From: Rozella allomycis CSF55
Taxonomy: Eukaryota
DNA length: 51,517 nucleotides
Direction: 5' to 3'
NCBI GenBank assembly: GCA_000442015.1
Contig: KE561068.1
Span: forward strand, 62,001-113,517
The notes under the pieces were generated by a model. That model did no database searches and was not told the DNA's origin. It worked only from the letters and a program-made list of their open reading frames with translations. Position numbers and translations under genes: made by a program. Shown here one piece after another: positions 1 to 50,875 of this stretch (position 1 is its first letter; each line of letters starts with the position of its first letter).

Positions 1-3000
1 TTTTAACAAGTATTGATATATTTTCCCATCAGTCCCTTTAATTGAACATTTACGCGGTCTCTGCTTTGAAGTAATAACAGTCAACGTTGGATGGAACATT
101 TGGATTCTGATTATCTGTGAATTGGATTTATAAGTGCCTGGAACAGCCAATTCCAAATCTTTCGCGTTTAATAGTTTAGGTGAAATGTATTGTAGATCTA
201 AACTAGTCATTTGAGATAGTTGCTTGGTGATTCTCTTAAACACGTGGTAATACAGATCCCATGCCATATTCAAATCATTAACGTTGTTTGATTTCTTGTA
301 TTTTTTACACCAATCATTCGCTTCTTGTAAATCTCTTCCATACGCTTGCGTAAATGAAATCTCTCTCAACGTCTCTGCACCCCTTTCCATCATCAAATGC
401 AGCGGTTCCAAAACACCAAGCATCCCTCATCTCCTATAAACTAAATGTTTACCTTCAATATTATGATCACTAAAGTACAATCTTGACGCTTCTTCCAACC
501 CCTCATGCCAAACTTCCTGCCACAAAATAGCGACTCTAATCAGCTCTTGACTTACAAGCAAAACCTAAAACAAATCAACTAAAATCATACCTGCTCAACT
601 AGATGTAACGAATGCGACTTCATCTTTTCAATAATAGCCAACGCCGACGTCTTTCTAGAATACGACGTAGATTTCGAAGCAACAGTCAGAGAATACACAA
701 GCGCCTGCGGATGCTCCTTCCCAACATCATTCAACACACAATGAATCAATCTCCTAACCTGCGGCGTCGGCGCATGAATCCTCGCAATCAACTGCGGAAT
801 AACTTGCAGCCAAGTGTCAATCCTCACCGAATTGAATCCCTAGCTGATCGCCATATTGACTTCAGGATGGTATCCGTATTTAAACATCAGCGTCAATAAC
901 CTCAACGTATCTTGCAGCGAATTTTCAAATGACAGTGAAATCGATTTAAAGAATCCTTGCACAGCCGGCACTACAAATGAAACGATCGTTTGCTTGTTGC
1001 CCTGCCCACTCTTTTCCATATCAGACACAACCTATAATAACATTGTCAATTCATTACCTGGAAATTAGCCAACGCCCATGAATGCCACGCCTTGTACCAT
1101 TCAGGATTAAATCTAGTCGCCTCCAAAAACGCATGAATTATACTAGAATGCGAATCATCAGACAACAACGACTATTCACCCATACAACATTTAATTACTT
1201 TTTGGTATTGACCCAATTTATGGTAACATTTAGCCAACAATTTTGAATGCTCATTGATTGAAAATGTTTCTGAATTTGATTCTGAATTTTTCCTAATTTC
1301 CAAATCACCCGCCAAATTCAAAGTAAAATCGTACAAACTCTTCAATGTCTCCACCTTGTCTCTAGTCTCCCACGAATATTTCAAAAACGAATAAATTATC
1401 AGTGGCGGCGACTGGTCAAAAGAAATCAAATTCAATGGAATAGAATTCAGCAGCCCAGAGCCCAGTGATTTACTTGCTTTCAACGAAGAACCCTTCAACG
1501 AAGATTCTTTCAACGCCAACACTTTATCCACCTCGGCGTTTTTAAACACAAAATTGTTTTTAAACAAATCCAGAAATATTTTATTACAAATGCTAAACCT
1601 CCCAGCTTTCCTGCACAGATTAGCAAACTTTATCCACATTTCAATATTCTCTTCAGGCTCCATTACAAGCGATCGTATTTTTAAAATTCTCTGCCAAACT
1701 TCCACATTCCTTTGACAGCCACTCAATCTTTTCATCCAGCATTCTTTGATAATTGGCTGCTTTTCAGGATACTTTTTAAATGAAATAATCTCTTCCAACT
1801 CTACAATCATCTGAATTCTAACAAGAACACTTTAAATGAAACTTTATAATTAACTTTACTTGTAGGCTCTGTTGTAGCTTTCACCAATCAATGCAGTCAA
1901 TTCAGTATCCAGTAAATCCCTCGTCTTTTCAATCAAACCCTGCGCCAAACTAAAATCATTTTTATTCAACGCCGAAATAGCTCTAAAGAAAGATCCATCA
2001 GCAGTGTCTTCTCTGATAACAGACAAATAGTCGTCAAGAGACTCCCACTGCTTCAAACCCCATGCAGCACCAGCAGCCAATGGAGCTATTTGCTTTCTAA
2101 CATCTTCATCAGCCTGCAACCATTTCTCTTGCGACACTTCACTCAACCTCTCCCAATCACCCAATGCATGCAAACATCGCATTTTGCCAAACGTATACTC
2201 TGAATTATCGGGATCTTCCAATGATCTCTTTTCATAGGCAATTAAAGCTTCTTCCCATCGATGTAATTTTTCATACCACGATTCTTTCAATTCAAAATTT
2301 TGCTTTGATTGAGTGTAGACTAGAATACCAATAGCTGCATCTGGCTGTTGAAGTTGATTGTTAATGCTAATTAGAGATTCAATTGTATTTGGAGATGATT
2401 TGTTAATAAATTCTAATTCCTTGTAGTGTAAAGCTTTAGCAAACGCATGACATTTAGCAGCATAAGCGCCCAACAGTTTAACATCAATTGGCAACGACAT
2501 TTCTTCATGTTCCATAAATTCAGCCAAATTTAAAATAATTTGAAGAATCTCTGGTGGAATGGTAGGCGAAGACAAGGCTATTTCCAACGATCGAATTAAC
2601 TCATCTTGAAACTGATCAAACATTTCAGTCCAACAAGAAATAAAAGCAACATTGAATAATTCTCTTGCTAGTGGGTAATAAATAGAAGATAAACTAGCAC
2701 AAGATCTTAAAGAATGGCAAGGGGATTCTTTTAATAATTCAACTGAAAATCTTCTTATCCATTCATTCCAATCTTCTTTTGTTGATCTTTGTGTTGCTTC
2801 AAATGATTTACACAAATTCATTTGATTTACAGGCAATTTCTTTACAGATTGATTTTGATTAACTTCTTCTCTTGTCTCAACATAGTTTACTCTTGTTTCT
2901 TCATTATTCAATATCTTTGAAATAGTTTCATTTAAAGCATTCGATTGAATTTTATTTTTTATTAAACTTTTCTGTACCATTGGAATAAAAACTATAAAAT

Positions 3001-6000
3001 CTTTATTCAACTGTTTAGCAATAACAATCAGCGCTTCAACACAAGTTGGTTTCAATTCATGAACATTCAATATTCTCAAAATTGGATGAATAAATCTACT
3101 CGAATAATTAAAGAAATTAATTCTCAAACAAATCTTTCCAATTGTCTCAATCGCTACTCTTCTCAATTGCATTAAATTTTCATTCTTTTCAAACAACTTT
3201 ATTATTGGAGGGATCGTTAAATAAATATACTCTTCCAAATCAACTCCAAACACAATTATCGTTTGCAACGCTTTAAACGTCAGCTGCTTCTTTTCACTTG
3301 AATCATTCTCCAATATCCCCAAAATCAATGGAAGAAGTTTAGGCAAATAGTCTCTAAACTCTCCATTCATCGCTACTGAAATTGATTCTATTAAATCCAA
3401 CAAACTATTCTGAATATTCACATTCCAATGCTCATTAATCAATTCTATTATCTTATCCAAATACTTTCTTATATGATTTCTCACAATAACAATCAATATA
3501 CTCAACTGCTGGAAATAAAACTCCAACAATCCTTTCACTAAAACTAAATCTATTTACCTGCTTGACACACCTTCATTATACTCAGATATGGATCCATCAC
3601 TTGTGGCAAAAATGTTACACATCTCATCCCCATAGTCTTAAAAATATACATTATCGCTTGAACAACCCCCGTATGATGCATACTCAATGAACTATCCTTC
3701 AATATTCTAACCAAACTCTTAATAACTATCGTGGGATAATAATCATCATGCGTTGGATGCAGATTAACAGACACTTCTTCATTACCAACTTCAACCAGTC
3801 CCTTAAAACACTCTTCACTCTCTTCTTTATCCATCTGCGTCACTTTATATCTATATGGATCCAATGCCCCCATAACACCCAACAATCTCGTCGTCTCCTT
3901 TCTAATCCCACTCCCCTGCTCCATCTTCAATATACTTATCAAATTAGTCAGCAAATCTGGATAATCAACATACGGCTCTATCACATACGCTGTAGATGAC
4001 GTCAATCTACAAAGTGCCTTCAACGCTTCCATTCTTTTCATTGGTGAACTCTGGTCTTGCAACGTTTGTATAATAATCGGACACAGTCTCTTTAAATACG
4101 GTCGCAGTTCATTGCCTCCAATATGCGCCAACTCTCCAACTGCAAACAAAATACTTCCAACAACACCTCTTAACTTTAATGATAAAATTTACCTGGAGTA
4201 TTATTTTGATCAAGTTTGGGTAATAAAACTCTCAAGATTGGTTCAACATATGGTTTGACTAGTCTTGTTGATGCTGCTATAATATGAGCCAACAAAGTCG
4301 CACTCTCTTCCTTTCCTCTACTAACACTTGAATATTCCAGTTGTGTTAAAAGTTGAATCAATGTCTTTCTCAACGATGGAAGAACACACGCAGGATTCAA
4401 ATCCGCCATTCTTCCCAACGTAGAAACAACAATCTCTCTAATCTGAAACACTTCATCATTCAACGCTAAAAACAAAGTTTTAATATTTTGTGCATGTGAC
4501 AAGTAATAATCAAACCTATTATCACCATCATATGCTCAATTTACCTCTTGTCTAATGATTCAAACACAATCCTTCTAACTTGCGGCTCTGGATCTGTTAT
4601 CCCCACATTCAACAATTTCTCCAATATTTCATTCAACGATTTAATTGCCATCGCACTCTTCTCCAAATACATTTCATCTCTTGCAACCAACTCTGTACAT
4701 GTTAACACAGTTTCTTTTCTAACTAGAACATTATCATAATCCAAATAAAACAAAACACATTCACAAATAAATTCTAAAAGCGATAATCCCTCAAAATTAA
4801 ATGTTTGCAAAATTCTCATTGACAAAATTATCGTCTCCTCATCCTGCGTTGGCTCCACAACTATTTGATTAGATTTTGGTGCGCCAACTGGAGAAAAGAA
4901 CGTCCCCTTCAGCAACAATGATATCAAATCCAACAATTTCACTATTTCATTCAAACTATTTGCTTACTCTTTATAACTGAATTAAAGTTGGGAAGTGCTT
5001 TAGTTATTTTAATCAAACATTCGAAAAGTGGCAACGAAAGTCCATTCAAAAACAAAGGATCCAAAATCTCTTCAATCTTTCTCGACATTGTTTGCCCAAG
5101 CGCTTCAGCTAAACATCCAATACAAACATAAACACCATCTTCAACTAGCTTATTTTTACTATCACAAGTATAATTTATTCTTACTTTTTGTTTGTCAATG
5201 TATCTTTTATAAATGAAAATATCTGATCAATAAACTCTGTTATGCTATGCTGCACTTGCTTGGCTATCAATCCAAATGACTCAAACAAATTCCCTCTTTC
5301 CTTTTCTTTCTTCATCATATTCAAAATATGACTGCAAAATGTCGTCAAATAGAAACTACAAAATTGCTGCACATCATACTCTGCCAACAACGGGATAATC
5401 ACTAGCACCGTCTTTCTAACAACAGCATCCTTGTAATCTTTATATTTTATTGTAATCTCGCAAATCTCATTATACTTTTCAGCCAAATTCTATCAATTAT
5501 CAACAAACATCATCTTTACATCACCCGTCCCTGTCAATATAGACTTTACCGCCAACAACGATCCATGTATACTTTCTACATTATTCATCTTTATCCCCTT
5601 CAACGCCTCATCATAAATCTTCTTATACCACTGTATCTTAAACTGACTCTCCCGCAGCCCAATCAATTCCAAACACGTATCCAAACACCCACTCGCCGCC
5701 TCTCTCACAACTTGCTTGGGATCTCTCAACGCACACCATATACTATCAATTATCTGGCCAACATACGAATACACCAAACTAGGCGCATTCTTCGCCAGCT
5801 CCATAACAATATACACCGCAGACAGTCTTTTATGCTCATTCCTATCCCCTATATCCAACCCAAACAACCATCCTACCTTGCAGCCAATCCAGCGCCCTGC
5901 GCATCTCAAAATCCACAAAATCAGCCGTCAGCGTGCCCCCACACTGCGCAAGCTTGCCAAGCGCCCGTGCCCCACTCACAATAACCTTTCCCATCCACTC

Positions 6001-6317
6001 ATTCACATTACCTGCAGGTCAGAGCTCGGAAGCACCATCCGCAAATAATTCGCAAACCTGGTAATCTTTGTGGCATTCTCCTCGGTCTGGAAATCAATCA
6101 GAGTCGTTATTGCGTAAATGCCAGCTAGCTTGTCATTCATGCTCGGTGAATGGATCAGCTCGAATATTCGCTTGTTCACATCGTTCAGGTACTTGCTGAA
6201 TTGCTCCGCAGACATTTCGCGTGATATGTACGTTATGTGGTTGTATAATTCATGGCTCGCTGGAACGCGTGTCTCGGTGACACTGAGGTCGCCAAGAATT
6301 CGTACTAGTTCCTCCAT
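1..6317 (-). CDS. TOR: TOR kinase (HEAT, FAT, FRB and start of the kinase domain; runs off the window start); 13 short introns; one in-frame TAG at 840-842
   Basis: Spliced translation gives hallmark TOR motifs [73 protein letters not shown]. Introns of 26-30 nt (e.g. 5986-6011) restore the frame. ATG at 6317. Confidence 0.97.
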
Positions 6318-6407: not shown

Positions 6408-8077
6408 TTATATTCGAAAACAGTTGTAGTCCATTCTTTCGCTTCCGCCACCTCTTATGGCATTGATGTCAAGAGGACACTCATAAATAGTTTCTTCTTT
6501 TGAAAGATCGAAAGAACTATTCCTCAATTTCTTTAGTAACTCATCTTTTATACTGTCTATTCTCTGTAGTCCAGCGTTGATGAATCCTCGAATCATGCCT
6601 CCTTCATTCCCCGGTGTAAGGATATCATAAGCATCAAAACCTCCGCAATCATGATCATTTACTTCAATAATATATGGACTTGCAATCGGCTTCCCGTGCT
6701 CTACATTCCGACTAATTTATTAGACTTACCATCGAACCCATCCAAATGAAGCATTACATCCAATCCAACCATCATAGTCTCTGCGCGATAAGGACCTCCA
6801 TCAGCCCTCGTCATTGTCTTCTCATATTGGCTCCATTCCTCAAAGAATTTCCTACCGAGATCCTTAATTTCACGAAAACATTCGTCCCAATTGGATATCT
6901 CTGCTCTTCTGAATGCATCTTCTATACTCGTCCAAAATCCTCCGTTGGGTCCTTTTTGAAATTTTATAATTGAATGTACCTGCATTTACTGGTGCCCCGC
7001 GTTTTCCCACACGCGCCAAACCACCGCAAGTTTCCCCTATACCTTTTATCGAAATATCATTAGAATATACCATTTGCATTTTTGGCACAAACCACACGAA
7101 GAACCCAGTCAAATTTGTGATCAAGAAGTGCTACCGGTCCATTGAATGTTGACTTATCTAGCGATATGGTGGGAGACTCAATTTTCTTGTCTACAAGCAC
7201 AGAATCATTGTCAGAGCAAATGGATAGTAAATGTAATACATGGTCAACTGCACCTTCAAGATCGCCTTCCGACTCTAACTTGAAAATTTTCACACCATCA
7301 CACGAACAGAATCTTGGACCAGATGGTTTTATGACGATTTGATTGTATTGAATCATCGACACAAATTCCTTGATTTTATCAGCAACCGTCTTTTTTGAAG
7401 CATCATCAGACGAATTTAATAAGATTGTCAAAGGTTCGGTTAAAGAAGATCTCTCTATAAACTTCCTTTTTCTATCATTCAATGGACAGAGTTTAAACGC
7501 TATGAAATTAGGGACATTTATCCGCGCTTTGGACATTAGTAATCCAATTTAAATAACTGCAAATACATTACCTGGTAAATAGTTTGTCATTGATATCCAA
7601 TTCAATAGACGAAGAGCTTGACATAAATCCAATGTTATTGACTTCAAAATTCTTGGCTTGTATACATAGCGGTTGCATTTTAGGATATTCGGCCCAGCTA
7701 GAGCATGACAAAAAGTTGACATAAAGCCCAATTATTCTTGGTTTTTTGAATTTGACATATTCCAATCCTTTACCGTTGAAACGAATTCCTTGATTCATTA
7801 CCAATATTGACTCGCTTTTTGAAATTGAATGAGATTTGATCCATGAAGGATGAAGACATATGTACACGCTAAATTCTTGCTTATTCACACCCAATTTAAA
7901 TCCTTCTTGAAGGTAAGATATGGCATAAGAGATTGGACCTAGCACGACCAAAGTCAATTTACTGGCATCTAAGTCGTCTATTGTTTGTATTAGAGACGAG
8001 AACTTCCAAGAATTTGTAAGTTTTACGATATCCAAAGCCTGTTCCTCTAAAAAGAAATTATATTCGGCAGTTGGCAT
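6408..8077 (-). CDS. ATP-grasp ligase resembling the N-terminal domain of carnosine synthase 1; 4 introns
   Basis: Motifs in order: LVVLGPISY..ICLHPSWI, INDKLFTR, IVIKPSGPRF, DSVLVD, GGPYRAETMMVGLDVML, PYIIEVNDHDCGG (ATP-grasp ExN). These parallel the CARNS1 N-terminal half as I recall it. Confidence 0.7.
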
Positions 8078-8138: not shown

Positions 8139-10119
8139 TTATTGAATGAAAATTTCGTGACTATTTTTCAATAAGTGCTCAATTATCTTGTTAATGTTAC
8201 CGTAATCCTCAATGCTTTGATTTTCCGTGAATAGAAGAGCAGGTCCAATTACAACAGCCAGGCTAGCGGCATCCATACCGTTTAAGTTTGAATTTTGCAC
8301 AACCTTTTCAAAACATTGGCAAACTCTCCACAATAGATGTAAGTTAGTATTGGGCAGTAACATTAAGTAAAATCGTATTACCACATCTAAATTATTTGGT
8401 GAAATATATTCTTAATTTAACGGAATAATAGATCATACTTGCTGCTGCCATAAAGAAAGGATAGAGCTTACATGACAAAATGGGCTCTGGCAATTCTCGT
8501 AGATACATCTTCAACAAAGTAGCCATATCAAATGGGGAAATAGGAAAACGCTTGAAATCGAAATCCAAAGGACTCTCATCAATTTTATCTTTTAACTCTT
8601 TGGTTAATTTAGCCGATCCGGGTATGCGAAATATTCCTTGAGTGCTTGCTCCGTTTATGATTATAGGCGATTTTACCATTTTCTTCAATTAATATACATA
8701 AATCATCAACAAGTTTAGGGATCAACAAACCTGGGTATTGAAGCCCTTGATGATTCATCCAGGCGTTCAATTCCGTCCCAAAAAGTTTGACCTTTTCTCT
8801 TTTAAAAAATAACGAAAAACCTATTCATTTAAGGAACATATTTTACTGGCAGATCTACTGATTGTACCGTTTTTGCCAAACAACGGCTTTTTGGATATTG
8901 TTTTGACGATTTTCTCGAAATCTAGTCGATGCTGAAACCTAGGATCCGTAAAGAGCATTTTTATTTCAGGAATTAAATTCCTTATAGCTTCATTTTTCTC
9001 CGTTAAACTCAAATCAAGAATTGATTTTGTCAACTTTGGCGTAAGAAATTCACCGAAAGCATCATCAACATTTTGAAGTTTCCGGTGTTGCGCGTGTCTA
9101 CTTTTTTTAGCTGGCTCTACGTTAGAATTGTGAGGAAAAATGTTTCTAGCTGCAGATGGTTTTCGTAAATTACCTCTTTGAAGTATTAATTGTCGTGCTA
9201 TGAGTCTTTGAAATAAACACTAATCGCCAAGTAGACAGTAATTCTCGTTTAGTAAGCGTATAATTTGTGTTTTTGGTGTTAATCAAGTGTTTAATAGAAG
9301 ACAGGGTATCGTAATCGTTTAAAACACGTCCTGAAATATATATCTTTAAAATTTTACTGTGCGTCCCTTTAACTAAGCATAATGTAAATAACCCATGGCC
9401 TTCCAAACTGCTTAGTCCAAATTTTTGGGCTATTATAGAAATTGAGGGGTCTACTAATGTATCATCTTCAAAAGCCAAAGTTTTATACGATGAAAAGTCT
9501 TCAGAATAAATAGGGTAAAGTGTTTTCTTTTGTGAATGCTGAAATGTGACATACTGGATTCGATGGACCTACAAGAGTAGTTATGGCCAAGTCATTCAGT
9601 CTAATTAGTTCATCTTCAATTGAATTATTATTTTCTCTTCTTGTGTTTGATTTAATTATTGGGGTTTGCTTATTTGATTTCTGTGTATTTGCTGAATTGA
9701 ATGTGTGACCAAACTTGATGTTCTGCCCGAATCTTAACATTTTCGGTGTATTGTCTCCATTTTCGGCTTTTTGATACTGCTTTGGCGTTTCACCTACTAG
9801 TGGAATTAATAAACGACCTCCAATGAACTGTATAGAAATTTCTGATGCGTCACTATCCTTTTTAGATGTATTATCTAATTCGTCAATTCCAGAGTCTCTT
9901 CGAATAGATTCTTCTCCAATGAATTTAATTTTCCGTTCATTCCCATTGATTTTGACAAGTGTGTTTGCTACCCATTCACTCGCCCATTCGCTTTCCCAAT
10001 CCGACTGGAGCTAGATCGCACAATATAATTAAATATACGTGTAGGTTATTGAATTCTGATTCGATGGAATTCTGATTCGACGGTATTTGTTTTATGTTTT
10101 TACTTTGGTCTTTTATCAT
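8139..10119 (-). CDS. RhoGAP-domain protein (C-terminal GAP domain); about 6 introns
   Basis: LFGTEL..IPKLV, TQGIFRIPGS (arginine finger), ATLLKMYLRELPEPIL, NGMDAASLAVVIGPALL. Upstream exons join in frame to ATG 10119. Confidence 0.88.
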
Positions 10120-10449: not shown

Positions 10450-10471
10450 TGGGTGAGTGTACACTCACCCA
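10450..10471. repeat. Perfect 22-bp palindrome TGGGTGAGTGT-ACACTCACCCA
   Basis: Read directly; no spacer. Confidence 0.95.
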
Positions 10472-18169: not shown

Positions 18170-18170
18170 N

Positions 18171-40089: not shown

Positions 40090-40096
40090 ATCATGT

Positions 40097-40791: not shown

Positions 40792-40822
40792 GAGTCTTTA
40801 GTTTCCTGAATTTTCCTAGTGG

Positions 40823-43800
40823 ATGTCAAAGTTTGCATTTCATGTAGAAAAGGATGAGGAAGAGGAAGAGTCGAACAACCCATTTATCGACAATAATTCG
40901 AGCCGAAATAATGTTTCAAGAAAAGGGTCAACAAATAACCCATTTGAATTGATGCTTGAAAAGAACAAGAATACGATGTCGCAGATGGAGTTGCAGAAGA
41001 ATAAGAAGGATAAAAATGAGGAAATAAAAAGCAATAATCCATTTGAGAATATGATCTCGAGTAATGAGAAAAAGTCCAAGAACTCTGTGGCCAATTTGTA
41101 TTCGAGTAATAATCCATTTGAAGAGGAATTAAAATCTGAAAGAAAAAATAGTTTGGATGAAATGAAGAGACGGGGTTCGGTGAATGAGATTAGAGATAAA
41201 AGAAAAGCATCCATGTTTAAACCTGAAGACGTTGAAATTTCTGCAATTGATGGAGACAAGTCGCAAAATTTAGGATCTGGAGAATTAGAGACAATTGAAT
41301 GGACAAGACAGGAGGAGATGGCTGTTTTGGAAATGTATCATTTGGAAACATTACAGCCAACCGAGTGGAATGACGCACCAGCAATGAGGAAAATGGAAAG
41401 CATGGCAAGATTGAATATTGATCATCCAGCACATGCATCGATAGCCAATATAGCTGAACATTTGCATGAAGAAGAAGATCCGCTTGGTATAAATGCAAAG
41501 TAGGCAAAGCAATTTAATGATTATAAAGGAACAGAAGGAATAAAGGAATGACTCTACAAAAGACAATATCAAGTTTAAATTTAGATGGGAGTGGGATAAA
41601 GTTTTCTAGCAAGAATTTTGATCCTGTGGCGTACCTTATCCATGTGCATGGGTCAACATTATATTCTGATTTGATTAAAGGATCTGAAAGTAAAATATAA
41701 TTTTGAAATTTAAAGATTTGAAAAGATCTATAAAGGAAAAACAAGAATGGTCAAAAAAGTTGGTGAAACAAAACTTTGATAGGTTTGTGCATGCCAAGAC
41801 TCTTGTAGATAGTAATGTATTGATGATGAAATGAATATTAGATGTTTATAGAGAGATGAAGGATAATGTGTTTAGAAAACCAGAGTTTGGGACAAGAGAA
41901 GCAAACAAGTTTATTTCAGAATCATTTAACGTCTCCGATCATCTTTATAATCCAATTATTGAGAGAAGAGATAAAACTGAGAAAATTCGACTTCAACTTT
42001 CAATTTTGGAACAATTTAAATTTTTCTTTTCTTTACCTAAATTAATGAAATCATATTTGATCAAAGTAAATCAAATTGCTTAAATTTTAATAGAATGAAT
42101 TTGATCAAGCAGTAAAAGATTATAAAAAGGGAAAGTTTGTTATAAAGTCACATGAGCAAGATGTGTTTAAACACATTTGGAAAGAAGTTTTGTTGACTGT
42201 TAAATCCATTCAAGAAAAGTTAATAAAGAAATTATCAGATTCATTTCAAGATGTGAATATTCAAGAGAAAATAATTCAATCTTTGATAGATTTGGATATT
42301 GAAAGCGATCCAATCTCTATTTATTTAACAAATCAGAAATCTTTTATAATTTCCAAAATAGATTCAATAAATAAAAAATTCAAATATTTAGATCAAGATA
42401 TTTTAAGAAATTATGAAATCAATAGACAATCTTTAGAATATCTCTACAAGGACAAAAAAGATCATATTCAATATTTAAGAAAAATGTTAATAATTTCTGT
42501 TACAGATCAAATAGATTCAAATTTCTCAAATAATGTTCAACATTCATTGTGGAATTCTAGATTAAATTTAATAAATGAAATAAACAATGAATTGATGTTG
42601 CAAATTACTAATTTATGGAAAGTTTCTAAACCATTTCATTCAAAATCTAAATCTATCATAAATCAAGTTCAAAATATTCTTGAAGAAATATCAAACATTT
42701 CAATCTCTTGCATTAATGAATCTTTTTCTTTCAAAAATAATCTTTCTAAAATTGCTTCAAGTGACGTTCTTGCTATTTCGCATTACACCTTGAAAATAAT
42801 AAATAATTTATCTTTAACATTCAATCAAATTAAAAGTTTAAGACAAAACTCAAATCTTCTTTACAATTACGCAGAATTTATCTTAAACTTGAAAAACTCT
42901 TTTATAGATTTTATTTCAACATCTTTAATGAATGGTATGAAATTAAATTTTATTTTAATAAAGAAATAAATGAATTTCATGTTTATGAAACTTGGTCCTC
43001 TGATCCAGACCCATTGGATATTACATCATGCACAAGGGTAGCTTACAGAATAATGAAATACGCCTTGCGATCAATTTATATTCTCCATTCAACAGAAATA
43101 ACTATAGAAAAAGAAAATTATCCAATAGAAAATATCAAATCTACTTTTATTCAATGTCTAACCTCATATCTAAAAGGACTAAAATTTACAGCATTTCAAT
43201 TTGAAGATTTCCTCTTAGAACAATCAGCCTCTGGAATCTACAATTTTTCAAACACTTCAGAAAAACTATCCTCAAATCCAATCTATTACATTTCCACAAG
43301 CGGTGCTCACATTCTAGTTAATAACAATGTAATAATTTTTTATCGTCATTAAAAGGAAAACAGATACTTAATACTTTTAGGAAACCTTTTATACGCAAAA
43401 AATATAATGTTCCCAAAGTTAATTTCCCTGTTTAGCGAGATGTTTGAATGTAGAATTGAAATAAATGTAACCATATTCGACTTAATAAATAGAATATCAT
43501 CAAATTAACAGAAGAAATTGAAGATTCTTTATTTGATTCTTACTCTAATCCAATTCTCATTACAGTAAAGGAAATCAATACGCATGGTTTATCCTCCCCT
43601 CCGAATTGGCACTCATCATTAACCTTTGAAGGTAATCCATCATTTATTTATAAATAGATATTCGATTTTACGTGCCAAAAGTATTAATGCAAATTGTACA
43701 TCACTTCTCCCAAATCATGGACGTCTCAAAACCATTGGTAAACCGCTTCATTCCCTACTTTGTTGAAAATATTTACTTTTACATTCTTGAATACTTAGCA

Positions 43801-44040
43801 TCAATAACTTCAATTTCAAAGGGCGCATGCCTCCAACTGAAACTCGAATTTGACTACTTGGACGCTGTTCTGGCATCTTTCTACACCTCAAAAGCAGAAA
43901 GAAACTTTTCAAAATTACAAGAAACTATCATAAAGATGTCCAATTACTATGAACTAAACAAAGATGAAATAGAGAGTCTTAAAACTAAATTGCAGTCCAT
44001 GATACAATCCACAAAACTACAATTCTACTGTCTTTCCTAA
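40823..44040 (+). CDS. SEC5: Exocyst subunit Sec5 (EXOC2) with an NPF-repeat N-terminus; 8 introns
   Basis: DPLG, SSKNFDPVAYLIHVH, LVKQNFDRFVHAK, LEQFKFFFSLP, DYKKGK, STKLQFYCL. Intron 41500-41528 joins the NPF exon in frame. Confidence 0.9.
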
Positions 44041-44545
44041 TAAATATATATCATTTGCCATTATTTTGTTCAATTTTACAAAGGTCTTGCAAATGCAGAC
44101 ATTTTTATATTTCATCCCCAAATAATCATAAATTTGTTAAGATATCGAAATTGTTAAAGTTTATTTGTTTTCGATGAGAATTTTAATCACCTTTGTGTGA
44201 CATGCCGAACAGCCACCGTTTACCGAAAACGGCAAGTATGTCAAAATAAATGAACTTTCACGTAAAAAATAAAAAATAAATTCGTAAAGCAATAAATTTC
44301 TACAATATTCCTAAATAATCTACAACGGTGCACACGTGTGTTATTTTTGGCACTATTAGATCGTGGCTTAGCCCGAAATAACGGCTAATTGCAATGTAAA
44401 TACCGCTAATTTCATTAAATTACCGGTGAAAATTACATTAAAGTGAAAAATTAAATGTTCGCCTTGACATAAAGAAGACTAGAACAGCCGAACGTCTGGA
44501 AAATCAATAACGACCCCTTGCGATCACTTTTAATTTGCAGGGGTT

Positions 44546-45387
44546 ATGAATGACGAAGCAAACACCGGAGCCTTAAACGAACTTGTTAGGGCCATCGAAA
44601 AAGAAGAGAAAAATCCGGTATGTACAACATCGAAAAAGGTCGACAGAGAACCAACAAAACGCAGAAGACTCACAATGGAACAGCTCAAGATCCTAAACAA
44701 TTTTTTTGAACATACGTATTTTCCAACGCAACAACAACGTCAAGCTCTTGGAAAAGAATTAAATCTTCCGCCTAGAAGCGTGCAAATCTGGTAAGATCGT
44801 GTAGATGTCGATATAATAGGTTCCAAAACAAAAGGCAGGCACATCGTGTCAAACTTCGAAATGTAAAAAATACGCTTTTGCAGGAAAACGTGTCCAAAGA
44901 GAATAAGAAACGACAGGAAATGTTCAATGCATTGCTGACACCGCCACGAGGCCGACCACTCGCCATACGATCCCCACCGCGGCCAAAAGAAGATCCACAT
45001 ATGGAAAATGTACAGCGAATATCTTTAACAAACTTTCTTCCGACTTGGTCTCCCAGAGATGAACTGATATCACCTACAATAGATTCATTTCCGTTTTGTA
45101 CGCCGAGATTACCAGGAATGATTCCTTTAGCGGATCAAATACCGAACACTGTACCCGCCAGTCTAATTCTTTCGCCTATTAATCAATCCCATGATCGTAA
45201 AGAACAAAGCCACCAAAGGTTACCATCTCTACATTCTGTGATTGAGAACGTATCGAGTATGAACATGAAGCCGTATTCCGTAGATCCAGATTTATCGAAA
45301 CCTAATTTCCCTACAAGGTCCCATGCATCTAGATTGCTAGAGTCCTTGTCCAACACGTACGAGAATCTGTATCCAATAAACAAATGA
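44546..45387 (+). CDS. Homeodomain transcription factor; intron 44791-44819
   Basis: KRRRLTMEQLKILNNFF..FPTQQQRQALGKELNLPPRSVQIW|FQNKRQ. Confidence 0.93.
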
Positions 45388-45514
45388 AGTGTTGTAAATA
45401 AACATCTTTAGATGATAGTTCGTAGTTCATCTATAAAAAGTTCAATATTTAATACATGATAATTTATTGATGCTTTGAGGCAGGTAAAGAAAGGTTCGGT
45501 GTTCAAGATGCCGT

Positions 45515-45838
45515 TTACTCAATCTTGAAAGAATCCAGCGCAAAGTGGGGCCATATTTGTTCATTTTCAAAGTTTTTATCATATATGTCATCATAATCTT
45601 GATCAGCCATTGTTGGCTTGAGATTATCGGGTACCTTAATTTCCTCGTCAGGAAGTCGTTCCTTTTTAAAATTTTCAATTCTTTGAAATACTTTGTCAAA
45701 ATAGCAATTCTGGTGAATATGGTTGAATTGAGAGTCCTAGTATTCTAAAAACAAAAAGCGTACCATTCGAATGCCAATAATTTCGAGAATTTCACTGAAT
45801 TCAATAGACTTTAGATAACACGCGTGATTGGACTTCAA
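45515..45838 (-). CDS. Possible small gene (last two exons; start not found)
   Basis: LKSNHACYL..IGIRM, 27-nt GT-AG intron, DSQFNH..QIWPHFALDSFKIE*; no upstream exon resolved. Confidence 0.35.
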
Positions 45839-46050
45839 GCTAATCCTTCAAATAAATTTTAAAGTTAATGAGTTTCAGTTATCTCCATCCTTTCCCTTTG
45901 CAGAATAAACCAAAGGACATCACTAGACTTTAGGCATTAGATTGGGAAAGGCTCCATAATACCTGAAACGCGCAGTAATAAAAGTTATCCAACAAAGAAT
46001 ATTTTCCCATTCATGATAACATTGTACTATCTCTTTATGAAAATTCCAAC

Positions 46051-48226
46051 ATGGAAAGTCGAAATCGTTTAACAGGCATAGTCTACGATGAAAGAATGCT
46101 AGATCACAAAACTAGAAAAGATTACGTCGGTGTTCATCCGGAACGCCCAGAAAGGATCAAAGTTATATATGAGGCTATCCAAGATGTGTTGAAGAATAGC
46201 CCCGAAAAAACCATACATTATGCCATAGATGAATTAGACATGGACTGTCTAAGTATTGTTGAGGAGACACATGATCCCGAATACGTTAGACAGATTATGC
46301 TTTTGAGCAGTAACTACAACCGTCTTACTTATTCAGCGAGAAATGATATAGAATTAGACGCGATGCAAAAGAAATATGACTCAATATATTTACATCAACA
46401 AAGTGGAATTTCTGCCTTTATTTCATGTATGGGAGCTATTACATTGGCCAAACGAATTTTGCACAATGAAATCCAAAACGGTTTTGCCATTATTCGACCT
46501 CCTGGTCATCACGCTGAAACTAACTGTGTAAGTATTTTTGAAGCAATTAATTCAGGCAATGTAATATTATTGTAAAGTTGTATTCAGGGGATTTTGCTTT
46601 TTAAATAACGCGGCCATTACTGCAAATTATCTTAGAGCTAATGGAGTCGACAGAGTTTTGATTGTAGATTGGGATATTCACCACGGTAAGAAAGGATTGT
46701 TATATTTTGAAAGGAAACGGAACTCAAAGTATATTTTTCAATGATCCAAATGTATTGTATTTTTCTATCCATCGATATAACAACGGTGAATTTTATCCAG
46801 GTCGAAAAGATGCTTCGCCTGGTATTGTAGGAGGAGCGAGTGCATTAGGAAAGTAAGATGACCATGGAGATATCATAGAACCGTCAATGTGGGATGGTCA
46901 TCGTCAGGGGCTACTGACGCAGATTATTTATATGTATTCAATAATATTCTTATGCCTATTGCCCAAGAATTCAATCCTAATTTTGTAATTGTTTCAGCTG
47001 GATTTGATTCTGCAAAAGGGGACCCCATTGGTCAAACTTTAGTGACCCCGGAAGGTTATGGTCAAATGACTTACATGCTTTCTTCTTTAGCTAATGGAAA
47101 GGTTTTGCTACTTTTAGAAGTAAGAAAAAGTAACAATTTCTGAGTCAGGGTGGATACAGCTTGGATGCAATAAAGTCCTCGGCTGTTTCGTGCTTTAAAG
47201 TATTGACAGGTGATAGACCACAACCGATTTCAGATTATAATCTACGTAAACAAGCTGTTTTTGATGCAGAATCGACAATTATGTCCCATTCACGATATTG
47301 GAAGTGCTTGAAACCTAAATATGAGAATCTTAATGTTTCACATAAACAATGCAAAAGATTAAAAGAATGTATATCTAATTCAAGATGCTCAATATTAACG
47401 GGAAAGAAAATGTTTCCATTAAGCGTTGCAACAGAATACGATGAAATTTTCCCTCAAGCGACATTTTCAACGTAAACATGATTGTATTATTAAAATACAA
47501 AGAGCAAATTTACTAACCAACAATTCAATTTTAATTGTTAACGTCCATGAAATACCATTTGTTAAAGCCAATGAGCCTTTGTTAAACAGTCATATAAATG
47601 ACCTCACTGCTACAGTGGTAAGATAATTCCAATTATATTTTATGATATTCCCTGCTCTTCAGTACATTGATTATTTTCTAAAGAATGATTTTGCTTTAAT
47701 TGATATTTCTATTGGTCATCGTCAGAACAATGCTGGGCAACCAGGTGTAGAATCTTACGTCGCATGGGAATTGGAAAAAATGGAATCTTACTTGATTAAA
47801 GTTATTGCAGCCTTTGTAGAGTAATAGCAATTGTGTATAGTTGATAGTAAAACTGTAGCTCCAAGTATCATTTTCATTGGAACTGGAAAGCCCTTCAAGG
47901 CTCTTTTAAGAATATTGAGCAATATAAAAACTGAATCATCAACATTCAAACGAACCAAAGCTCTTATTGGATTCGTGACAGAAGTTCCCGCAATATCCCC
48001 GCAACCAAAGATTCAAGATTGGTTTCAAAGAGTAAAACAAGAAATGTTCTGAAAATAGATAAGCCTTATTTACTTGTCCCATATAAATATTAAAGAAGGT
48101 GTAAAGTTAAATTTGCTACCTTTTCTTAATTGTCATTCCGCAGGAAATATGAACTTGTACGAAGCCCTAGAAAGATACGAACGAAACGTGTTGGAATTTA
48201 TTTATTCAATCAAAAATCAAAAGTAA
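46051..48226 (+). CDS. HDA1: Class II histone deacetylase (Hda1/Clr3-like) with C-terminal Arb2-like region; includes a 5-nt microexon
   Basis: HPERPERI, RPPGHHAE, GFC, DWDIHHGNGTQ, VSAGFDSAKGDP, LLEGGY. Confidence 0.93.
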
Positions 48227-48253
48227 TAAAATCTATAAAATATTTTTTATTAT

Positions 48254-49498
48254 TTATGGTCTCCATAGAATTACTTTTTTAGCACGATGAATCGCTACTT
48301 TCAATTGAGAACCAACGTAAGTATCTGTCGTATTTGCTAAAATCTTTTCCATCTAAAACCTAAACCTTTGCTTGCTTACTTTTGGTAGTGCATGCTGCTC
48401 GAAATAGTGTCTTCCAGGATAATCTTCAGCGCAATTTGTAATGACTTGTATGGTCACAAGTTTGACAGCTTCTGATGGATCGTCTAGGAGAGAAATAAGC
48501 TGGCCTATTCCATCTCTATTCAAGAGTTTTTTGCCTTGAACGTTAATAGTAATTGCCATCAATGTATTTACGGCTTGCTCTCTTACAATCTCGTTGGGAT
48601 CAGATGTACACCTTGACAAGTATAATATTGCACCTTGCTCTACAGCCATTTCTTTGCCTTTGGATGTTGCACTATAAAATTACTTAAACAATAGTTACCA
48701 AAACATCGACAAAGTTTTGCATGTGGCAATTTTTAGTTCAAGAGTACAGTTTGCAAAGTCTTGAATCATTTTGATCAAATGTTCTAATATAGGGCTATTT
48801 AGTGCAACAACTTGATCGAAACGTATACAAAAGTAAAGCGTGTTAAGAATAAGTGCCTAATATAATTACCATATCTTGTATTACTCGAATATTTTGCTCT
48901 TCATTGGGAATTCGATCAATTAATGCTGGTACTTGTCTTTGAATTATAAGTTGCTCTACAGCCTTTTGATTTGATGAAGCTAGGCGGTAAATACTTAATT
49001 GCACATTTCTTCTCACCAAATAATCAAAATCATCAATCTTTGTGGAAATCTATTGTTCATTACCAATTTTGAAAGTTGAAATATGTATCCTTCCTCTACA
49101 AGGGCTTGACGACCAATGGAATGGCCTTTCTTGATTTCATGAATATTTTACTTGCAAATGAAGATATTATGTCAGTAGAAAACTGTCGAATAGCAGAGTC
49201 TTCTGATATTATCATCAGCTTTAAGACTCCAAGAATATCTATCACAAAAATATGCCGTTACTTGTACTTGTCTTTAGGCCATCTACAATGTTCTCCGGTT
49301 TATGCATCAATTCTGCGAGTGAAATCAATCCTTTTGTCTTAATCAGTAAATCAGCCTCTTGTATATTCAATACCTTTGTATTCTTGGTTTAATATGTACT
49401 AGGTTTTGGACAGCTAAACATCCGAAAGATATCGGGCGGTGAAGAATATCAGATGCTGGTGGAAATCTGGCGTTGTAAAGAGCAGTTTCAAAATCCAT
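48254..49498 (-). CDS. RSPH14: Radial spoke head protein 14 (armadillo repeats)
   Basis: Spliced: PISFGCLAVQNL, LISLAELMHKPEN, ASHSIGRQAL, ITINVQGK, VITNCAEDYPGR; C-terminus VILWRP. Confidence 0.8.
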
Positions 49499-49906
49499 GT
49501 TTGCGCTTGGCAACAAGAGTAAATTACTTGCAGAAGGATCACTTTGCCGTCTTAATGTCTTATTCAAACAAATATAATAAAACTAAAATACATCTACACT
49601 CCAAAGGCTTTATCCGACGTCTTTGACTTTTCAATTGAGCCCGCCCAATTTCCTTTATTACAAAATACATTGCAAAATAATTGCTGCTTGAATAACATAT
49701 ACATATTCAAATCCCGCGTAGATAAATAATATCGCCTATCTGTTTTTGGGGTAAGATTTAAGAACATTTAAGGGGTTAATGGCCACCTTTAACGATGTCA
49801 GCCAATATTCATATCAAGCGGTAATTAAAATACGGTCTAAAAACGGGTTTTCATAATATTAGCTGCTATATTAATTGTTAAATTTCGGCCCAGTCACAAA
49901 TTAGTT

Positions 49907-50875
49907 TTATTTGTTTTGCTGTAAATGCTGGAACAATTGCAGTGCATTTTGCTTAAAAACAGATAGCTGTTTGTTCATATTTTCTTTTATTGAATGAAAA
50001 TATATTTTACCAATAGAATGAGTGATTTTCTTCAGGTTGCATATTTCTTCATTGTGCCAATTGTGATTACCTAAACTTGCAGTTGTAAATGCCTCGCCTA
50101 TATCATTGGTAAAATCTTCAACACAACAAGCGGCTTTTCTGCATATATCTTTTTCAATAGAGTTTAAATTATACCTTGAAGCTTGTGGCGGTATTTTGCA
50201 TCCCATTCGTTAACTGCCATGATATGTTGAAAGAAAGGATCATTTGGATCACATTGAAGGTATTCTTCATTTGTGGGTTGATTTTGATCAATATCATTGT
50301 TGTAATTGGTCTGATCAGCGATTTGCGAATCCCCTTCAGATTCTAATCCAGTCTATTTGAAAGCTAATGTATTAATTTACTTCAATCTTTTCAATTTGGA
50401 TATCGCCATTGGAATTTTTTTCTTCCTCTACTACATTCTTTGTAGCATCAGTGTTTCTTCTTTTGGAGGCTTGCAACTGCCTTTCAGGTGAATTATGTTC
50501 GTATTGATATTGCTGTTGATGGTTATCAATGTATTCGTCCTCATCGAGCGGTATATGAGAGAGTTCTTCGTCATCTTCATCAAACTCTTCATACGCAAAA
50601 GGAGTCTCGTGACGTTGAATTTCGCCTATCTTGATTCTTTTATCTAGTTTTGGAATATAAAAAAAGGTACTATGCTGTTCTAAGTGTACCTGACTACTAT
50701 TTCTTTGCCTTTCCTCCTTTGGCGTAGGCGGGAATCTATGGGGATTGGTAGGTGCAAATGCAGGAGGTTGTGGATGATGAAAATTATTTATAGAGTTCTG
50801 ATTTTTGGGGTTGAATTTGTTTCCGAATGTTTTTAATGGTTGAAATCCGAATTGTGGCGCCATGTCCAGGGTCAT
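49907..50875 (-). CDS. Hypothetical protein (Pro/Gln-rich then acidic); at least 2 introns
   Basis: ORFs 50372-50875 and 49907-50206 join through 28- and 26-nt GT-AG introns. Confidence 0.6.

What the first reader, a model, noticed from the sequence alone, without database searches (positions are those of the whole stretch)
421..50380. Ultra-short introns whose 3' splice site appears chosen by distance
Seen: on the order of 100 hand-traced introns are nearly all 25-32 nt (longest 34), with no evident polypyrimidine tract or CTRAC-type branch consensus. AAG, TAG, CAG and GAG acceptors all occur. Nearer AGs are skipped: GTAAATAGATTTAGTTTTAGTGAAAG in TOR (three internal TAG ignored), GTAAACATTTAGTTTATAGGAGATGAG near 430, GTAACGCCATTTAAGTGGCTTCACGAAAG at 21315. 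Inference: a reduced spliceosome measuring a minimum span of about 26 nt from the donor.
Basis: partly seen in the sequence, partly recalled or inferred. Interest (0 to 1): 0.7.

Follow-up and report, generated by a model that had tools for sequence, protein, structure and literature searches.

The report
Ultra-short introns in Rozella allomycis
This stretch of the fungal parasite Rozella allomycis is packed with genuine introns only 26 to 32 bases long, whose ends appear to be set by distance from the intron's start, as in a few other organisms with tiny introns.

Summary
The window is nuclear DNA of Rozella allomycis CSF55, read in the standard code. Removing 31 GT..AG segments of 26-32 nt restores collinear alignment to homologues or unbroken Pfam profile coordinates in TOR, chitin synthase, HDAC, adaptin and one conserved unnamed gene. 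My own gene parser adds 49 more. No checked intron is under 26 nt, and 13 of the 31 are exactly 26. There is no pyrimidine tract and no CTRAY enrichment. TAG, AAG, CAG and GAG acceptors all occur. All three skipped-AG examples are confirmed.

In introns of 27 nt or more it stays at +23 (31 of 49). My best reading is ordinary U2-type splicing at its minimum size. A degenerate branch A sits about 23 nt from the donor, and ligation uses the first AG at least 3 nt beyond it. The "reduced spliceosome" idea is untested, and no RNA data could be laid.

Ultra-short introns are known from ciliates, microsporidia, myxozoans and dicyemids. Rozella is a barely described further case. All four public gene models checked are wrong because of these introns.

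The parts
5986..6011 (-). TOR intron, 26 nt
   Evidence: Exact mapping of the window's own TOR model P0035. The junction is collinear with 11 TOR homologues.
5849..5876 (-). TOR intron, 28 nt
5490..5519 (-). TOR intron, 30 nt
5159..5184 (-). TOR intron, 26 nt
   Evidence: The surrounding region is variable, but there is no indel at the junction.
4942..4967 (-). TOR intron, 26 nt
4516..4544 (-). TOR intron, 29 nt
4167..4192 (-). TOR intron, 26 nt, GAG acceptor
   Evidence: AGs that would give 19- and 24-nt introns are passed over.
3532..3557 (-).
   Evidence: Internal AGs lie at would-be lengths 8, 14 and 20. The in-frame 20-nt alternative would insert 2 residues absent from all 11 homologues.
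1830..1859 (-). TOR intron, 30 nt
1172..1198 (-). TOR intron, 27 nt
   Evidence: It carries an in-frame stop. The alignment has a 3-residue gap two positions downstream of the junction, in a variable loop, so support is weaker here.
1032..1057 (-). TOR intron, 26 nt
565..590 (-). TOR intron, 26 nt
426..452 (-).
   Evidence: AGs at would-be lengths 12, 19 and 22 are passed over.
840..860 (-). NOT an intron: a 21-nt 'intron' in the public TOR model
   Evidence: All 11 homologues have 7 residues here. The segment is coding and contains an in-frame TAG (842-840) at a conserved Glu position.
7544..7571 (-). 28-nt segment with a GTAATG donor that ends in GG, not AG
   Evidence: Homologues P0170 and P0171 run on without a gap from 7571 to 7542 only if exactly these 28 nt are removed. 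It is either a non-AG acceptor or an assembly error.
7043..7070 (-). Intron, 28 nt, in conserved gene 6411-8077
   Evidence: Homologue P0172 favours 28 nt over the 34 nt of public model P0169. Support is moderate.
6952..6979 (-). Intron, 28 nt
   Evidence: Collinear with P0171.
6701..6729 (-). Intron, 29 nt
   Evidence: Collinear with P0171.
20521..20546 (+). Adaptin intron, 26 nt, GTGG donor
   Evidence: The Adaptin_N profile runs from position 86 to 86/87 across the junction.
20689..20714 (+). Adaptin intron, 26 nt
   Evidence: Profile position about 133 continues at 134.
20889..20914 (+). Adaptin intron, 26 nt, GTTAGT donor
   Evidence: It is the only 26-nt GT..AG that links the two frames at profile positions 188-193. 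It has CTAAT with its second A at +23.
21315..21343 (+).
   Evidence: Profile position 292 continues at 294.
22567..22593 (+). Adaptin intron, 27 nt
   Evidence: The Alpha_adaptinC2 profile runs from position 51 to 52, exactly at the exon ends.
29769..29797 (+). Chitin synthase (ankyrin part) intron, 29 nt
   Evidence: Gap-free alignment to ankyrin-chitin synthase homologue P0005 through the junction.
29908..29933 (+). Chitin synthase (ankyrin part) intron, 26 nt
31985..32010 (+). Chitin synthase intron, 26 nt
   Evidence: Exact mapping of public model P0001. Chitin_synth_2 profile position 279 ends at the donor, and the 74-residue middle exon fills positions 280-353.
32234..32265 (+). Chitin synthase intron, 32 nt (the longest verified)
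   Evidence: It has CTAAT with its A residues at +23 and +24.
46528..46555 (+). HDAC intron, 28 nt
   Evidence: It is needed to restore the six-residue spacing between the HHA and GFC catalytic motifs.
46556..46560 (+). 5-nt micro-exon between two introns
   Evidence: The parse that includes it has 13 alignment gaps to homologue P0157, against 32 for the public model and 37 for the parse.
46561..46587 (+). HDAC intron, 27 nt
46686..46713 (+). HDAC intron, 28 nt
   Evidence: It restores the conserved DWD-HHGNG block.
46853..46878 (+). HDAC intron, 26 nt
   Evidence: The in-frame 17-nt alternative would add 3 residues that no homologue has.
47120..47148 (+). HDAC intron, 29 nt
   Evidence: An AG at would-be length 25 is passed over.
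47472..47502 (+). HDAC intron, 31 nt
8411..50380 (.). 49 further introns predicted only by my own parser; not checked against homologues
   Evidence: Lengths: 26 nt x12, 27 x9, 28 x12, 29 x3, 30 x5, 31 x2, 34 x3, and one each of 38, 45 and 48. Coordinates are listed. That parse used a length prior that is flat over 25-34 nt, so these lengths are not independent evidence. Two other introns from the same parse were shown to be wrong and dropped (46664-46694; 20918-20964).

Best explanation
These are ordinary U2-type GT-AG spliceosomal introns of Rozella allomycis, shrunk to the smallest size its spliceosome tolerates.

The donor is (A)AG|GTAA. There is no pyrimidine tract. The branch site is degenerate: a weak U-rich stretch followed by A, with no CTRAY motif. 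It is defined mainly by position, the branch adenosine lying about 23 nt from the first base of the intron.

Exon ligation then uses the first AG whose G lies at least 3 nt beyond that A, which is 26 nt or more from the donor. AGs nearer the donor are not used because they lie upstream of the branch point or abut it. Pressure towards compactness keeps the acceptor within 3-9 nt of the A, which gives the pile-up at 26 nt and the tail to 32 nt.

SHOWN: the introns and their lengths; the 26-nt floor; the A at +23; the lack of other motifs; the passed-over AGs.

INFERRED: that the A at +23 is the branch point; that removal happens at the RNA level; that position rather than U2 pairing selects it.
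For: - 31 introns of 26-32 nt are verified by protein collinearity or Pfam profile arithmetic.
- Every candidate under 26 nt that could be tested was rejected. These were the TOR 20-nt alternative, the TOR 21-nt annotated 'intron', and the HDAC 16- and 17-nt parser calls.
- A at +23 occurs in 54 of 74 introns of 32 nt or less, in 25 of 31 verified introns, and in 31 of 49 introns of 27-32 nt (binomial p about 1e-5 against 0.33). The control, 272 GTA sites inside exons, gives 33%.
- In the donor-aligned profile, +23 is the only interior position with information: 0.40 bit, equal to donor position 4.
- T is 47-48% at +19 to +21, and 44-59% in an earlier 27-intron version of the verified set. C is 1% at +23.
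- Where a textbook CTAAT exists in a verified intron, its branch A falls at +23 or +24 (20889-20914 and 32234-32265).
- Internal AGs are common up to would-be length 25 (67 in 44 of 74 introns; 10 at 20-25 nt) and absent from position 26 to the acceptor (0 of 120 positions).
- Passed-over AGs include TAG contexts, while the used acceptor is often AAG, so local context does not explain the choice.
- Such short branch-to-AG distances have precedent in the sister group. A microsporidian intron expression places TAATT 0-4 nt before the AG (PMC3486916, figure legend).
- In myxozoans and Dicyema, a weak run of A moves away from the AG as the intron lengthens (PMC13644364, passages).
Against: - There is no RNA or lariat evidence.
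- +23 and -4 coincide in the modal 26-nt class. In longer introns, +23 beats -4 only 17 to 9 among discordant cases (McNemar p = 0.17). Among the verified introns of 27 nt or more, the two are equal (13 of 18 against 12 of 18).
- A branch A only 3 nt from the ligated G is shorter than any case I could document. Stentor has 5 nt. The microsporidian expression gives 4 or more.
- Pairing potential with U2 around +23 is weak.
- 20 of 74 introns lack A at +23.
- 49 of the 80 introns come from my own parser, which is known to err: 2 of its calls were disproved.
- The absence of AG at or beyond position 26 is only P = 0.015 to 0.03 overall, and is not significant in the verified set alone (0 of 48 positions).
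Confidence: 0.5

Rival explanations
1. This is classical branch-to-AG scanning, with an unrecognisably degenerate branch site further upstream (roughly +12 to +20).

AGs within a few nucleotides of that branch are sterically excluded, and the first AG beyond the exclusion distance is used. The 26-nt floor would then be the sum of two minimum distances. The A at +23 (-4) would be a second-step acceptor-context preference (A-W-A-G), not the branch.
For: - A at -4 is found in 46 of 74 introns, and in 12 of 18 verified introns of 27 nt or more.
- The 3' ends are A-rich from -7 to -4.
- +23 against -4 is not statistically separated.
- A 3-nt branch-to-G distance is unusually short.
- Passed-over AGs lie 2-7 nt upstream of the used AG, as expected if a branch sits just upstream of them.
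Against: - No position upstream of +23 carries any information in either alignment.
- No TRAY-type motif is enriched or localised.
- In introns of 27-32 nt, A at -4 is 23 of 49 (p = 0.10 against 0.37), while A at +23 is 31 of 49 (p about 1e-5).
- The acceptor-aligned peak drifts with length class (-4 at 26 nt, -6/-7 at 28-29 nt), whereas +23 is stable.
Confidence: 0.25
2. The spliceosome measures about 26 nt from the donor and takes the first AG (or whatever lies there), without a sequence-defined branch site mattering for acceptor choice.
For: - A sharp step at 25 to 26 nt.
- All four NAG acceptors are used.
- One homology-demanded 28-nt removal ends in GG, not AG (7571-7544).
- The unverified parser introns of 38 and 45 nt have no AG between position 25 and their ends.
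Against: - Lariat formation needs a branch nucleotide, and the A at +23 is the obvious candidate. The 'ruler to the acceptor' then reduces to 'ruler to the branch plus first AG'.
- A ruler alone predicts broad lengths (mean about 51 nt), unlike the observed 26-32 nt.
- The GG case is a single instance in an assembly that also carries an in-frame TAG inside TOR and five Ns.
Confidence: 0.12
3. This is an artefact. The short 'introns' would be products of gene-model fitting or of assembly errors, not segments that are really removed.
For: - No RNA evidence was obtained.
- Public models and my own parser both contain demonstrably false introns (840-860; the 64- and 121-nt annotated introns; 46664-46694; 20918-20964).
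Against: - The 31 junctions restore collinearity with distant homologues or exact Pfam profile continuity in five unrelated genes.
- The annotation-free signals, a spacing step and a fourfold motif excess, are independent of any gene model.
- All have GT..AG ends, and 29 of the 31 verified introns start with GTA.
- Published statistics for this species give 2.5 introns per kb of coding sequence (PMC8476143, passages). Another paper notes putative introns of about 30 nt in its S23 gene (PMC6349667, passages).
Confidence: 0.04

Closest known systems
Ultra-short introns of myxozoans and Dicyema (PMC13644364, 2026; passages read)
   Same: - Introns of 20-27 bp in parasites with compact genomes.
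- No pyrimidine tract, or an extremely short one.
- Only a weak run of A before the AG, which lies further from the AG the longer the intron is, so it is anchored to the donor. The authors propose it as the branch site.
   Different: - Animal lineages, with median intron lengths as low as 22 bp.
- U2 snRNA and U2AF were inventoried there; that could not be done here.
- Rozella is not in that paper's list of taxa with introns under 30 bp.
- In Rozella the signal is one sharp position (+23) and the floor is 26 nt.
Ciliate tiny introns: Paramecium, about 24-25 nt; Stentor, 15-16 nt (PMC12862383, PMC5014332 and PMC9505925; passages read)
   Same: - A narrow length distribution pressed against a minimum.
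- GT-AG ends with a conserved GTA.
- A/T-rich interior with no strong branch consensus.
- A putative branch A at a fixed position (Stentor: position 10 of 15).
   Different: - In Stentor the A keeps its distance to the 3' end (position 10 in 15-nt introns, 11 in 16-nt introns).
- Depletion of introns whose length is a multiple of 3 (3n introns), with in-frame stops, is documented in ciliates. Here 20 of 74 are 3n, and my set cannot test this fairly.
- Ciliates are an unrelated lineage.
Short introns of Microsporidia, the sister group (E. cuniculi, 22-76 nt; PMC3629993 passages; expression GTA[AG]GT...TAATT{0,4}AG in a PMC3486916 figure legend)
   Same: - A similar length range.
- GT-AG ends.
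- A branch point within a few nucleotides of the AG.
- Phylogenetic neighbourhood.
   Different: - Microsporidia have few introns, with strict 5' and branch motifs. Rozella has many (2.5 per kb of coding sequence) with loose motifs.
- Only 2 of 80 Rozella introns match the microsporidian expression, and only 4 of 80 have a GTA[AG]GT donor.
- PMC6349667 already noted that Rozella's S23 introns of about 30 nt lack the E. cuniculi motifs.
Classical rule that the 3' splice site is the first AG downstream of the branch point
   Same: Upstream AGs are ignored, and the first AG beyond the presumed branch is used.
   Different: In the classical case the branch is found by sequence and a pyrimidine tract. 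Here it appears to be found mainly by its distance from the donor, and the branch-to-AG spacing would be only 3-9 nt.

Membership tests
U2-type GT-AG spliceosomal introns | GT at the 5' end and AG at the 3' end | tested here: met
   31 of 31 verified introns. One further homology-demanded 28-nt segment has GT..GG.
U2-type GT-AG spliceosomal introns | Removal restores a continuous, conserved reading frame | tested here: met
   alignments; Pfam profile continuity.
U2-type GT-AG spliceosomal introns | A branch-point adenosine in a U2-complementary context | tested here: inconclusive
   A at +23 in 54 of 74 introns, with weak T at +19 to +21. There is no TRAY or CTRAY enrichment.
U2-type GT-AG spliceosomal introns | Absent from the mature RNA; a lariat is formed | not testable with these tools
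   No RNA run holding the stretch was listed.
Ultra-short-intron genomes (ciliates, nucleomorphs, microsporidia, myxozoans, dicyemids) | Modal intron length under 30 nt, with a narrow distribution against a hard minimum | tested here: met
   The mode equals the minimum, 26 nt (13 of 31 verified; 25 of 80). 74 of 80 introns are 32 nt or less.
Ultra-short-intron genomes (ciliates, nucleomorphs, microsporidia, myxozoans, dicyemids) | Loss of the pyrimidine tract and of a strong branch motif | tested here: met
Ultra-short-intron genomes (ciliates, nucleomorphs, microsporidia, myxozoans, dicyemids) | Depletion of 3n introns, or enrichment of in-frame stops in them | tested here: inconclusive
   20 of 74 introns are 3n. 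My parser only calls an intron where the frame would otherwise break, so the set is biased.
Microsporidian-type short introns | A strict GTA[AG]GT donor and TAATT 0-4 nt before the AG | tested here: not met
   2 of 80 introns match the full expression. 4 of 80 have the donor, and 3 of 80 have the TAATT{0,4}AG end.
Microsporidian-type short introns | Few introns per genome | tested here: not met
   13 introns lie in 6.3 kb of TOR. The published figure is 2.5 introns per kb of coding sequence.

The most novel reading that the evidence does not exclude
The Rozella spliceosome places the branch nucleotide with a physical ruler about 23 nt from the 5' splice site instead of reading a branch sequence. 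It then ligates at the first suitable dinucleotide 3 nt or more downstream, and can even use a non-AG (GG) acceptor, as at 7571-7544. This would be a position-defined rather than sequence-defined 3' half of the intron, in an intron-rich fungus that is sister to Microsporidia.
Probability: 0.12. Interest if true: 0.8.

Novelty: new member of a known kind. Interest (0 to 1): 0.5.

Why it matters
Rozella sits next to Microsporidia at the base of the fungi. It combines many introns (about 2.5 per kb of coding sequence) with a length floor of 26 nt. That gives thousands of natural test cases for a basic question: how are a branch point and a 3' splice site chosen when there is no room for a pyrimidine tract or a branch motif? 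One lariat-sequencing experiment plus a genome-wide profile would answer it.

There is also a practical consequence. All four public gene models that I could check in this window are wrong because of these introns.
- The TOR model hides an in-frame stop inside a false 21-nt intron.
- The HDAC model deletes a catalytic motif with a 64-nt 'intron' and misses a 5-nt micro-exon.
- One model removes 121 nt of conserved coding sequence.
- The chitin synthase model lacks its ankyrin exons.

Proteome-based comparisons that use Rozella inherit such errors.

Within the searched library, no paper links Rozella with tiny or ultra-short introns. Only two passing remarks exist.

Tried and rejected
- RNA EVIDENCE. 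The search for sequencing runs listed no RNA holder of the stretch, only one run with the same species label and next to none of its words.
- WHOLE GENOME. None is held, so U2 snRNA, SF1 and U2AF could not be inventoried. An Rfam scan of the window found only a tRNA.
- PARSER WITHOUT SPLICE SCORES. It swallowed short exons into 100-200-nt 'introns'.
- PARSER WITH FULL SPLICE-SITE MATRICES. It over-predicted.
- PARSER WITH A STRICTER PENALTY. It under-predicted.
- PARSER CALLS UNDER 26 NT. It called introns of 15-24 nt. Three that could be tested (20 and 21 nt in TOR, 17 nt in HDAC) failed against homologues. The 16-nt HDAC call is better replaced by two introns of 28 and 27 nt around a 5-nt micro-exon, although its own retained exon carried the conserved motif.
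- PARSER CALLS OVER 32 NT. The six of 34-48 nt remain unverified. A seventh, 20918-20964 (47 nt), was disproved, and 10038-10005 (34 nt) has an in-frame 28-nt alternative.
- BRANCH MOTIFS. TRAY, YTRAY, CTRAY, TAAT, TAAC and others show no enrichment or localisation. A twofold TGA excess is a by-product of dinucleotide bias (57 observed against 46.5 expected).
- EXACT LOOK-UP OF SPLICED PROTEINS. I could not look up my spliced models in the protein collection, because joined sequences may not be typed.
- METAGENOME SCAN FOR ROZELLA-LIKE TOR LOCI. It gave one distant relative (39% identity, long exons), of no use here.
- LITERATURE. The intron table of PMC8042348 could not be found in the readable supplements, and one file was too large. 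So it is my inference, not something I read, that its minimum median of 29 bp refers to Rozella. The Rozella genome paper (James et al. 2013) is not held. The paper 'Constrained intron structures in a microsporidian' came up only as a cited title.

Full report
WHAT THE WINDOW IS.

The window is 35% G+C and reads in the standard code, with open frames up to 1501 codons. Pfam finds several eukaryotic housekeeping genes:
- TOR (FAT and mTOR domains);
- Nup192;
- ribosomal protein L2/L8;
- a class IV/V chitin synthase;
- Sec5;
- a class II histone deacetylase (HDAC);
- an adaptin;
- a UBX protein;
- a histone.

The chitin synthase frame is 100% identical to an NCBI protein of Rozella allomycis CSF55. 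The window's own TOR model came back from the protein collection as P0035. So this is nuclear DNA of Rozella allomycis, the chytrid-like parasite that is sister to Microsporidia.

No whole genome is held for this window. No RNA run holding the stretch was listed. Everything below therefore rests on DNA, protein homology and statistics, not on RNA.

ARE THE INTRONS REAL, AND HOW LONG ARE THEY?

I mapped public models exactly onto the DNA and then tested each junction against homologues.

TOR (P0035). The model has 14 introns in the window. I aligned it with 11 fungal TORs.
- 12 junctions are collinear.
- One (1198-1172) carries an in-frame stop and has a 3-residue gap two positions downstream, in a variable loop.
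- One, the only short one (860-840, 21 nt), is false. All homologues have seven residues there, and the segment is coding apart from an in-frame TAG at a conserved Glu position.
- The 13 real TOR introns are 26, 28, 30, 26, 26, 29, 26, 26, 30, 27, 26, 26 and 27 nt.

Chitin synthase. The two introns of model P0001 (26 and 32 nt) fit Pfam arithmetic exactly. Profile position 279 ends at the first donor. A 74-residue middle exon fills positions 280-353. Position 354 starts at the second acceptor. Two more introns (29 and 26 nt) lie in upstream ankyrin exons that the public model lacks. They are collinear with ankyrin-chitin synthase homologues.

HDAC. The public model P0155 has introns of 64 and 66 nt. 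The 64-nt one deletes the conserved GFC..NN catalytic block. Homologues instead require the following:
- a 28-nt intron, a 5-nt micro-exon and a 27-nt intron, which restore the exact six-residue spacing between the HHA and GFC motifs;
- further introns of 28, 26, 29 and 31 nt.

The conserved gene at 6411-8077. The public model P0169 has a 121-nt intron that removes conserved coding sequence. Homologues P0170 to P0172 support introns of 28, 28 and 29 nt. They also require removal of exactly 28 nt at 7571-7544, a segment that starts with GTAATG but ends in GG.

Adaptin. Pfam profile coordinates run on without a break across five introns of 26, 26, 26, 29 and 27 nt.

Total. This gives 31 verified introns: 26 nt x13, 27 x4, 28 x5, 29 x5, 30 x2, 31 x1 and 32 x1.

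THE EXTENDED SET AND THE MODEL-FREE CHECKS.

I wrote a Viterbi-type exon/intron parser, using codon log-odds trained on 16 long ORFs.
- With only a GTAA preference and a linear length cost, it called 96 introns. 71 of them were 25-34 nt by my count of the printout.
- With a prior that is flat over 25-34 nt, and after dropping calls disproved by homology, I kept 49 parser-only introns. That makes 80 in all.
- The parser errs. Two of its calls (46664-46694 and 20918-20964) were disproved. Its six introns of 34-48 nt are unverified.

Three checks need no gene model.
- GT..AG pairs that bridge two long open frames peak at 26 nt. They are two to three times enriched at 25-30 nt over five control dinucleotide pairs.
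- The count of GTAA..AG spacings doubles between 25 and 26 nt, from 19 to 38, against a baseline of 23.5 +/- 4.3.
- The 26-nt pattern GTAA-N18-A-N-AG occurs 28 times against 6.65 +/- 2.9 in shuffles.

SIGNALS.

Donor. It reads (A)AG|GTA. A3 is 97-100%, A4 is 73-81%, and there is little beyond that.

Acceptor. It is NAG, with T 47%, A 38%, C 11% and G 4% at -3. Both GAG acceptors in TOR are verified.

Interior. Composition is A 0.37, T 0.39, G 0.15 and C 0.10, so there is no pyrimidine tract.

Branch motifs. Branch-type motifs are neither enriched nor localised.

The A at +23.
- It is present in 22 of 24 introns of exactly 26 nt, where it equals -4.
- It is present in 54 of 74 introns of 32 nt or less, and in 25 of 31 verified ones.
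- Among introns of 27-32 nt it is still at +23 in 31 of 49 (binomial p about 1e-5), with flanking positions at 24-35% A.
- At 272 GTA sites inside exons, A at +23 is 33%.
- T is raised at +19 to +21, and C is almost absent at +23. This gives a faint yUnAy look.
- In the two verified introns that contain a textbook CTAAT near their 3' ends, its branch A falls at +23 or +24 (20889-20914 and 32234-32265).

Honest limits on this signal.
- A at -4 is also raised: 23 of 49 in the long class, and 12 of 18 among the verified long ones.
- The head-to-head comparison is 17 against 9 discordant introns (McNemar p = 0.17).
- So donor anchoring is the better single description (+23 is stable across length classes, while the acceptor-aligned peak drifts). 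It is not proven with this sample.

ACCEPTOR CHOICE.

- Internal AGs are frequent: 67 in 44 of 74 introns. They occur at every would-be length from 4 to 25 at about 3.5% per position. Ten lie at 20-25 nt, several in TAG context while the used site is AAG.
- None lies between position 26 and the used acceptor. That is 0 of 120 positions, with 4.2 expected (P = 0.015). Counting only out-of-frame positions, which my parser could not have chosen, 3.5 are expected (P = 0.03).
- In the verified set, AGs ending at 24 nt (4192-4167) and 25 nt (47120-47148) are passed over for AGs at 26 and 29 nt. Both alternatives are out of frame, so the call rests on the reading frame and on homology.
- A pure rule of 'first AG at or beyond 26 nt' would give lengths with a mean of about 51 nt and only 4% at exactly 26 nt. 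In fact 30% are exactly 26 nt and 86% are 30 nt or less. So the acceptor is also held close, by compaction pressure or by an upper limit on branch-to-AG distance.

MOST LIKELY MECHANISM.

My best reading (confidence about 0.5) is standard U2-type splicing at minimal size.
- The branch A lies about 23 nt from the donor and is chosen more by position than by sequence.
- Ligation uses the first AG at least 3 nt beyond it.
- Nearer AGs are invisible because they precede or abut the branch.

Short branch-to-AG spacing has precedent in the sister group. There TAATT lies 0-4 nt before the AG (PMC3486916, figure legend). The same donor-anchored drift of a weak A run was reported in 2026 for myxozoan and dicyemid introns of 20-27 bp (PMC13644364, passages).

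The main rival (0.25) puts a cryptic branch further upstream and treats the A as acceptor context. An artefact reading is unlikely (0.04). The 'reduced spliceosome' claim is untested.

WHAT IS KNOWN.

- Rozella has 2.5 introns per kb of coding sequence (PMC8476143, passages).
- PMC6349667 notes two putative introns of about 30 nt in its S23 gene that lack the E. cuniculi motifs (passages).
- PMC8042348 gives median intron lengths of 29-197 bp for a set of fungi that includes Rozella (passages). I could not read the table that says which species has 29 bp.
- Searches pairing Rozella with 'short introns', 'intron length', 'spliceosome', and 'tiny', 'ultra-short', 'smallest' or 'shortest introns' found no paper that describes the phenomenon.
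- The 2026 list of taxa with introns under 30 bp omits Rozella.
- Ultra-short introns as a class are well known in Paramecium (24-25 nt), Stentor (15-16 nt, branch A at position 10) and E. cuniculi (22-76 nt, strict motifs). Rozella does not fit the microsporidian motif type: 2 of 80 introns match.

VERDICT.

Rozella is a new, barely described member of a known kind. The finding is moderately interesting, and its practical by-product is that current public Rozella gene models mishandle these introns.

Noticed in passing
window 840-842 (- strand), inside TOR: An in-frame TAG sits at a position where all 11 TOR homologues have Glu. The public model hides it inside a false 21-nt intron (860-840). 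It is an assembly error, a polymorphism or a read-through site.
   Followed up: partly
window 7544-7571 (- strand): Homology requires removal of exactly 28 nt that start with GTAATG and have A at +23 but end in GG instead of AG. An internal AG at would-be length 15 is not used. It is either a non-canonical acceptor or a single-base assembly error.
   Followed up: partly
window 46556-46560 (+ strand): A 5-nt micro-exon lies between a 28-nt and a 27-nt intron in the HDAC gene. It is needed to restore the catalytic-loop spacing. Both the public model and simple parsers miss it.
   Followed up: yes
window 29462-30130 (+), 46051-48049 (+), 6411-8077 (-): Three public gene models are wrong here. The chitin synthase model P0001 starts at 30145 and lacks the upstream ankyrin exons. 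The HDAC model P0155 has introns of 64 and 66 nt, the first of which deletes a conserved motif. P0169 starts at 7798 and removes 121 nt of conserved coding sequence, although homologues align from about 8077.
   Followed up: yes
window 13360-17865 (- strand): The Nup192 gene has a 1501-codon frame without any intron, while neighbouring TOR has 13 introns in 6.3 kb. Intron density is very uneven between genes.
   Followed up: no
window 46162-46182 (+ strand): Public HDAC protein P0155, from a 24-kb contig, lacks four residues and differs at one more compared with the window. So at least two assemblies of this organism differ here.
   Followed up: no
window 11926, 12079, 12367, 12882, 18170: There are five isolated single N bases, which suggests unresolved positions in the assembly.
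   Followed up: no
window 19948-20021 (- strand): A tRNA-Cys (GCA) gene lies between the L2/L8 ribosomal protein gene and the adaptin gene.
   Followed up: yes
window 46310-46336 (+ strand): A 27-nt, in-frame, stop-free GT..AG segment lies in the HDAC gene. Removing it deletes nine residues that no homologue has. It is probably an intron that would be silent if retained.
   Followed up: partly
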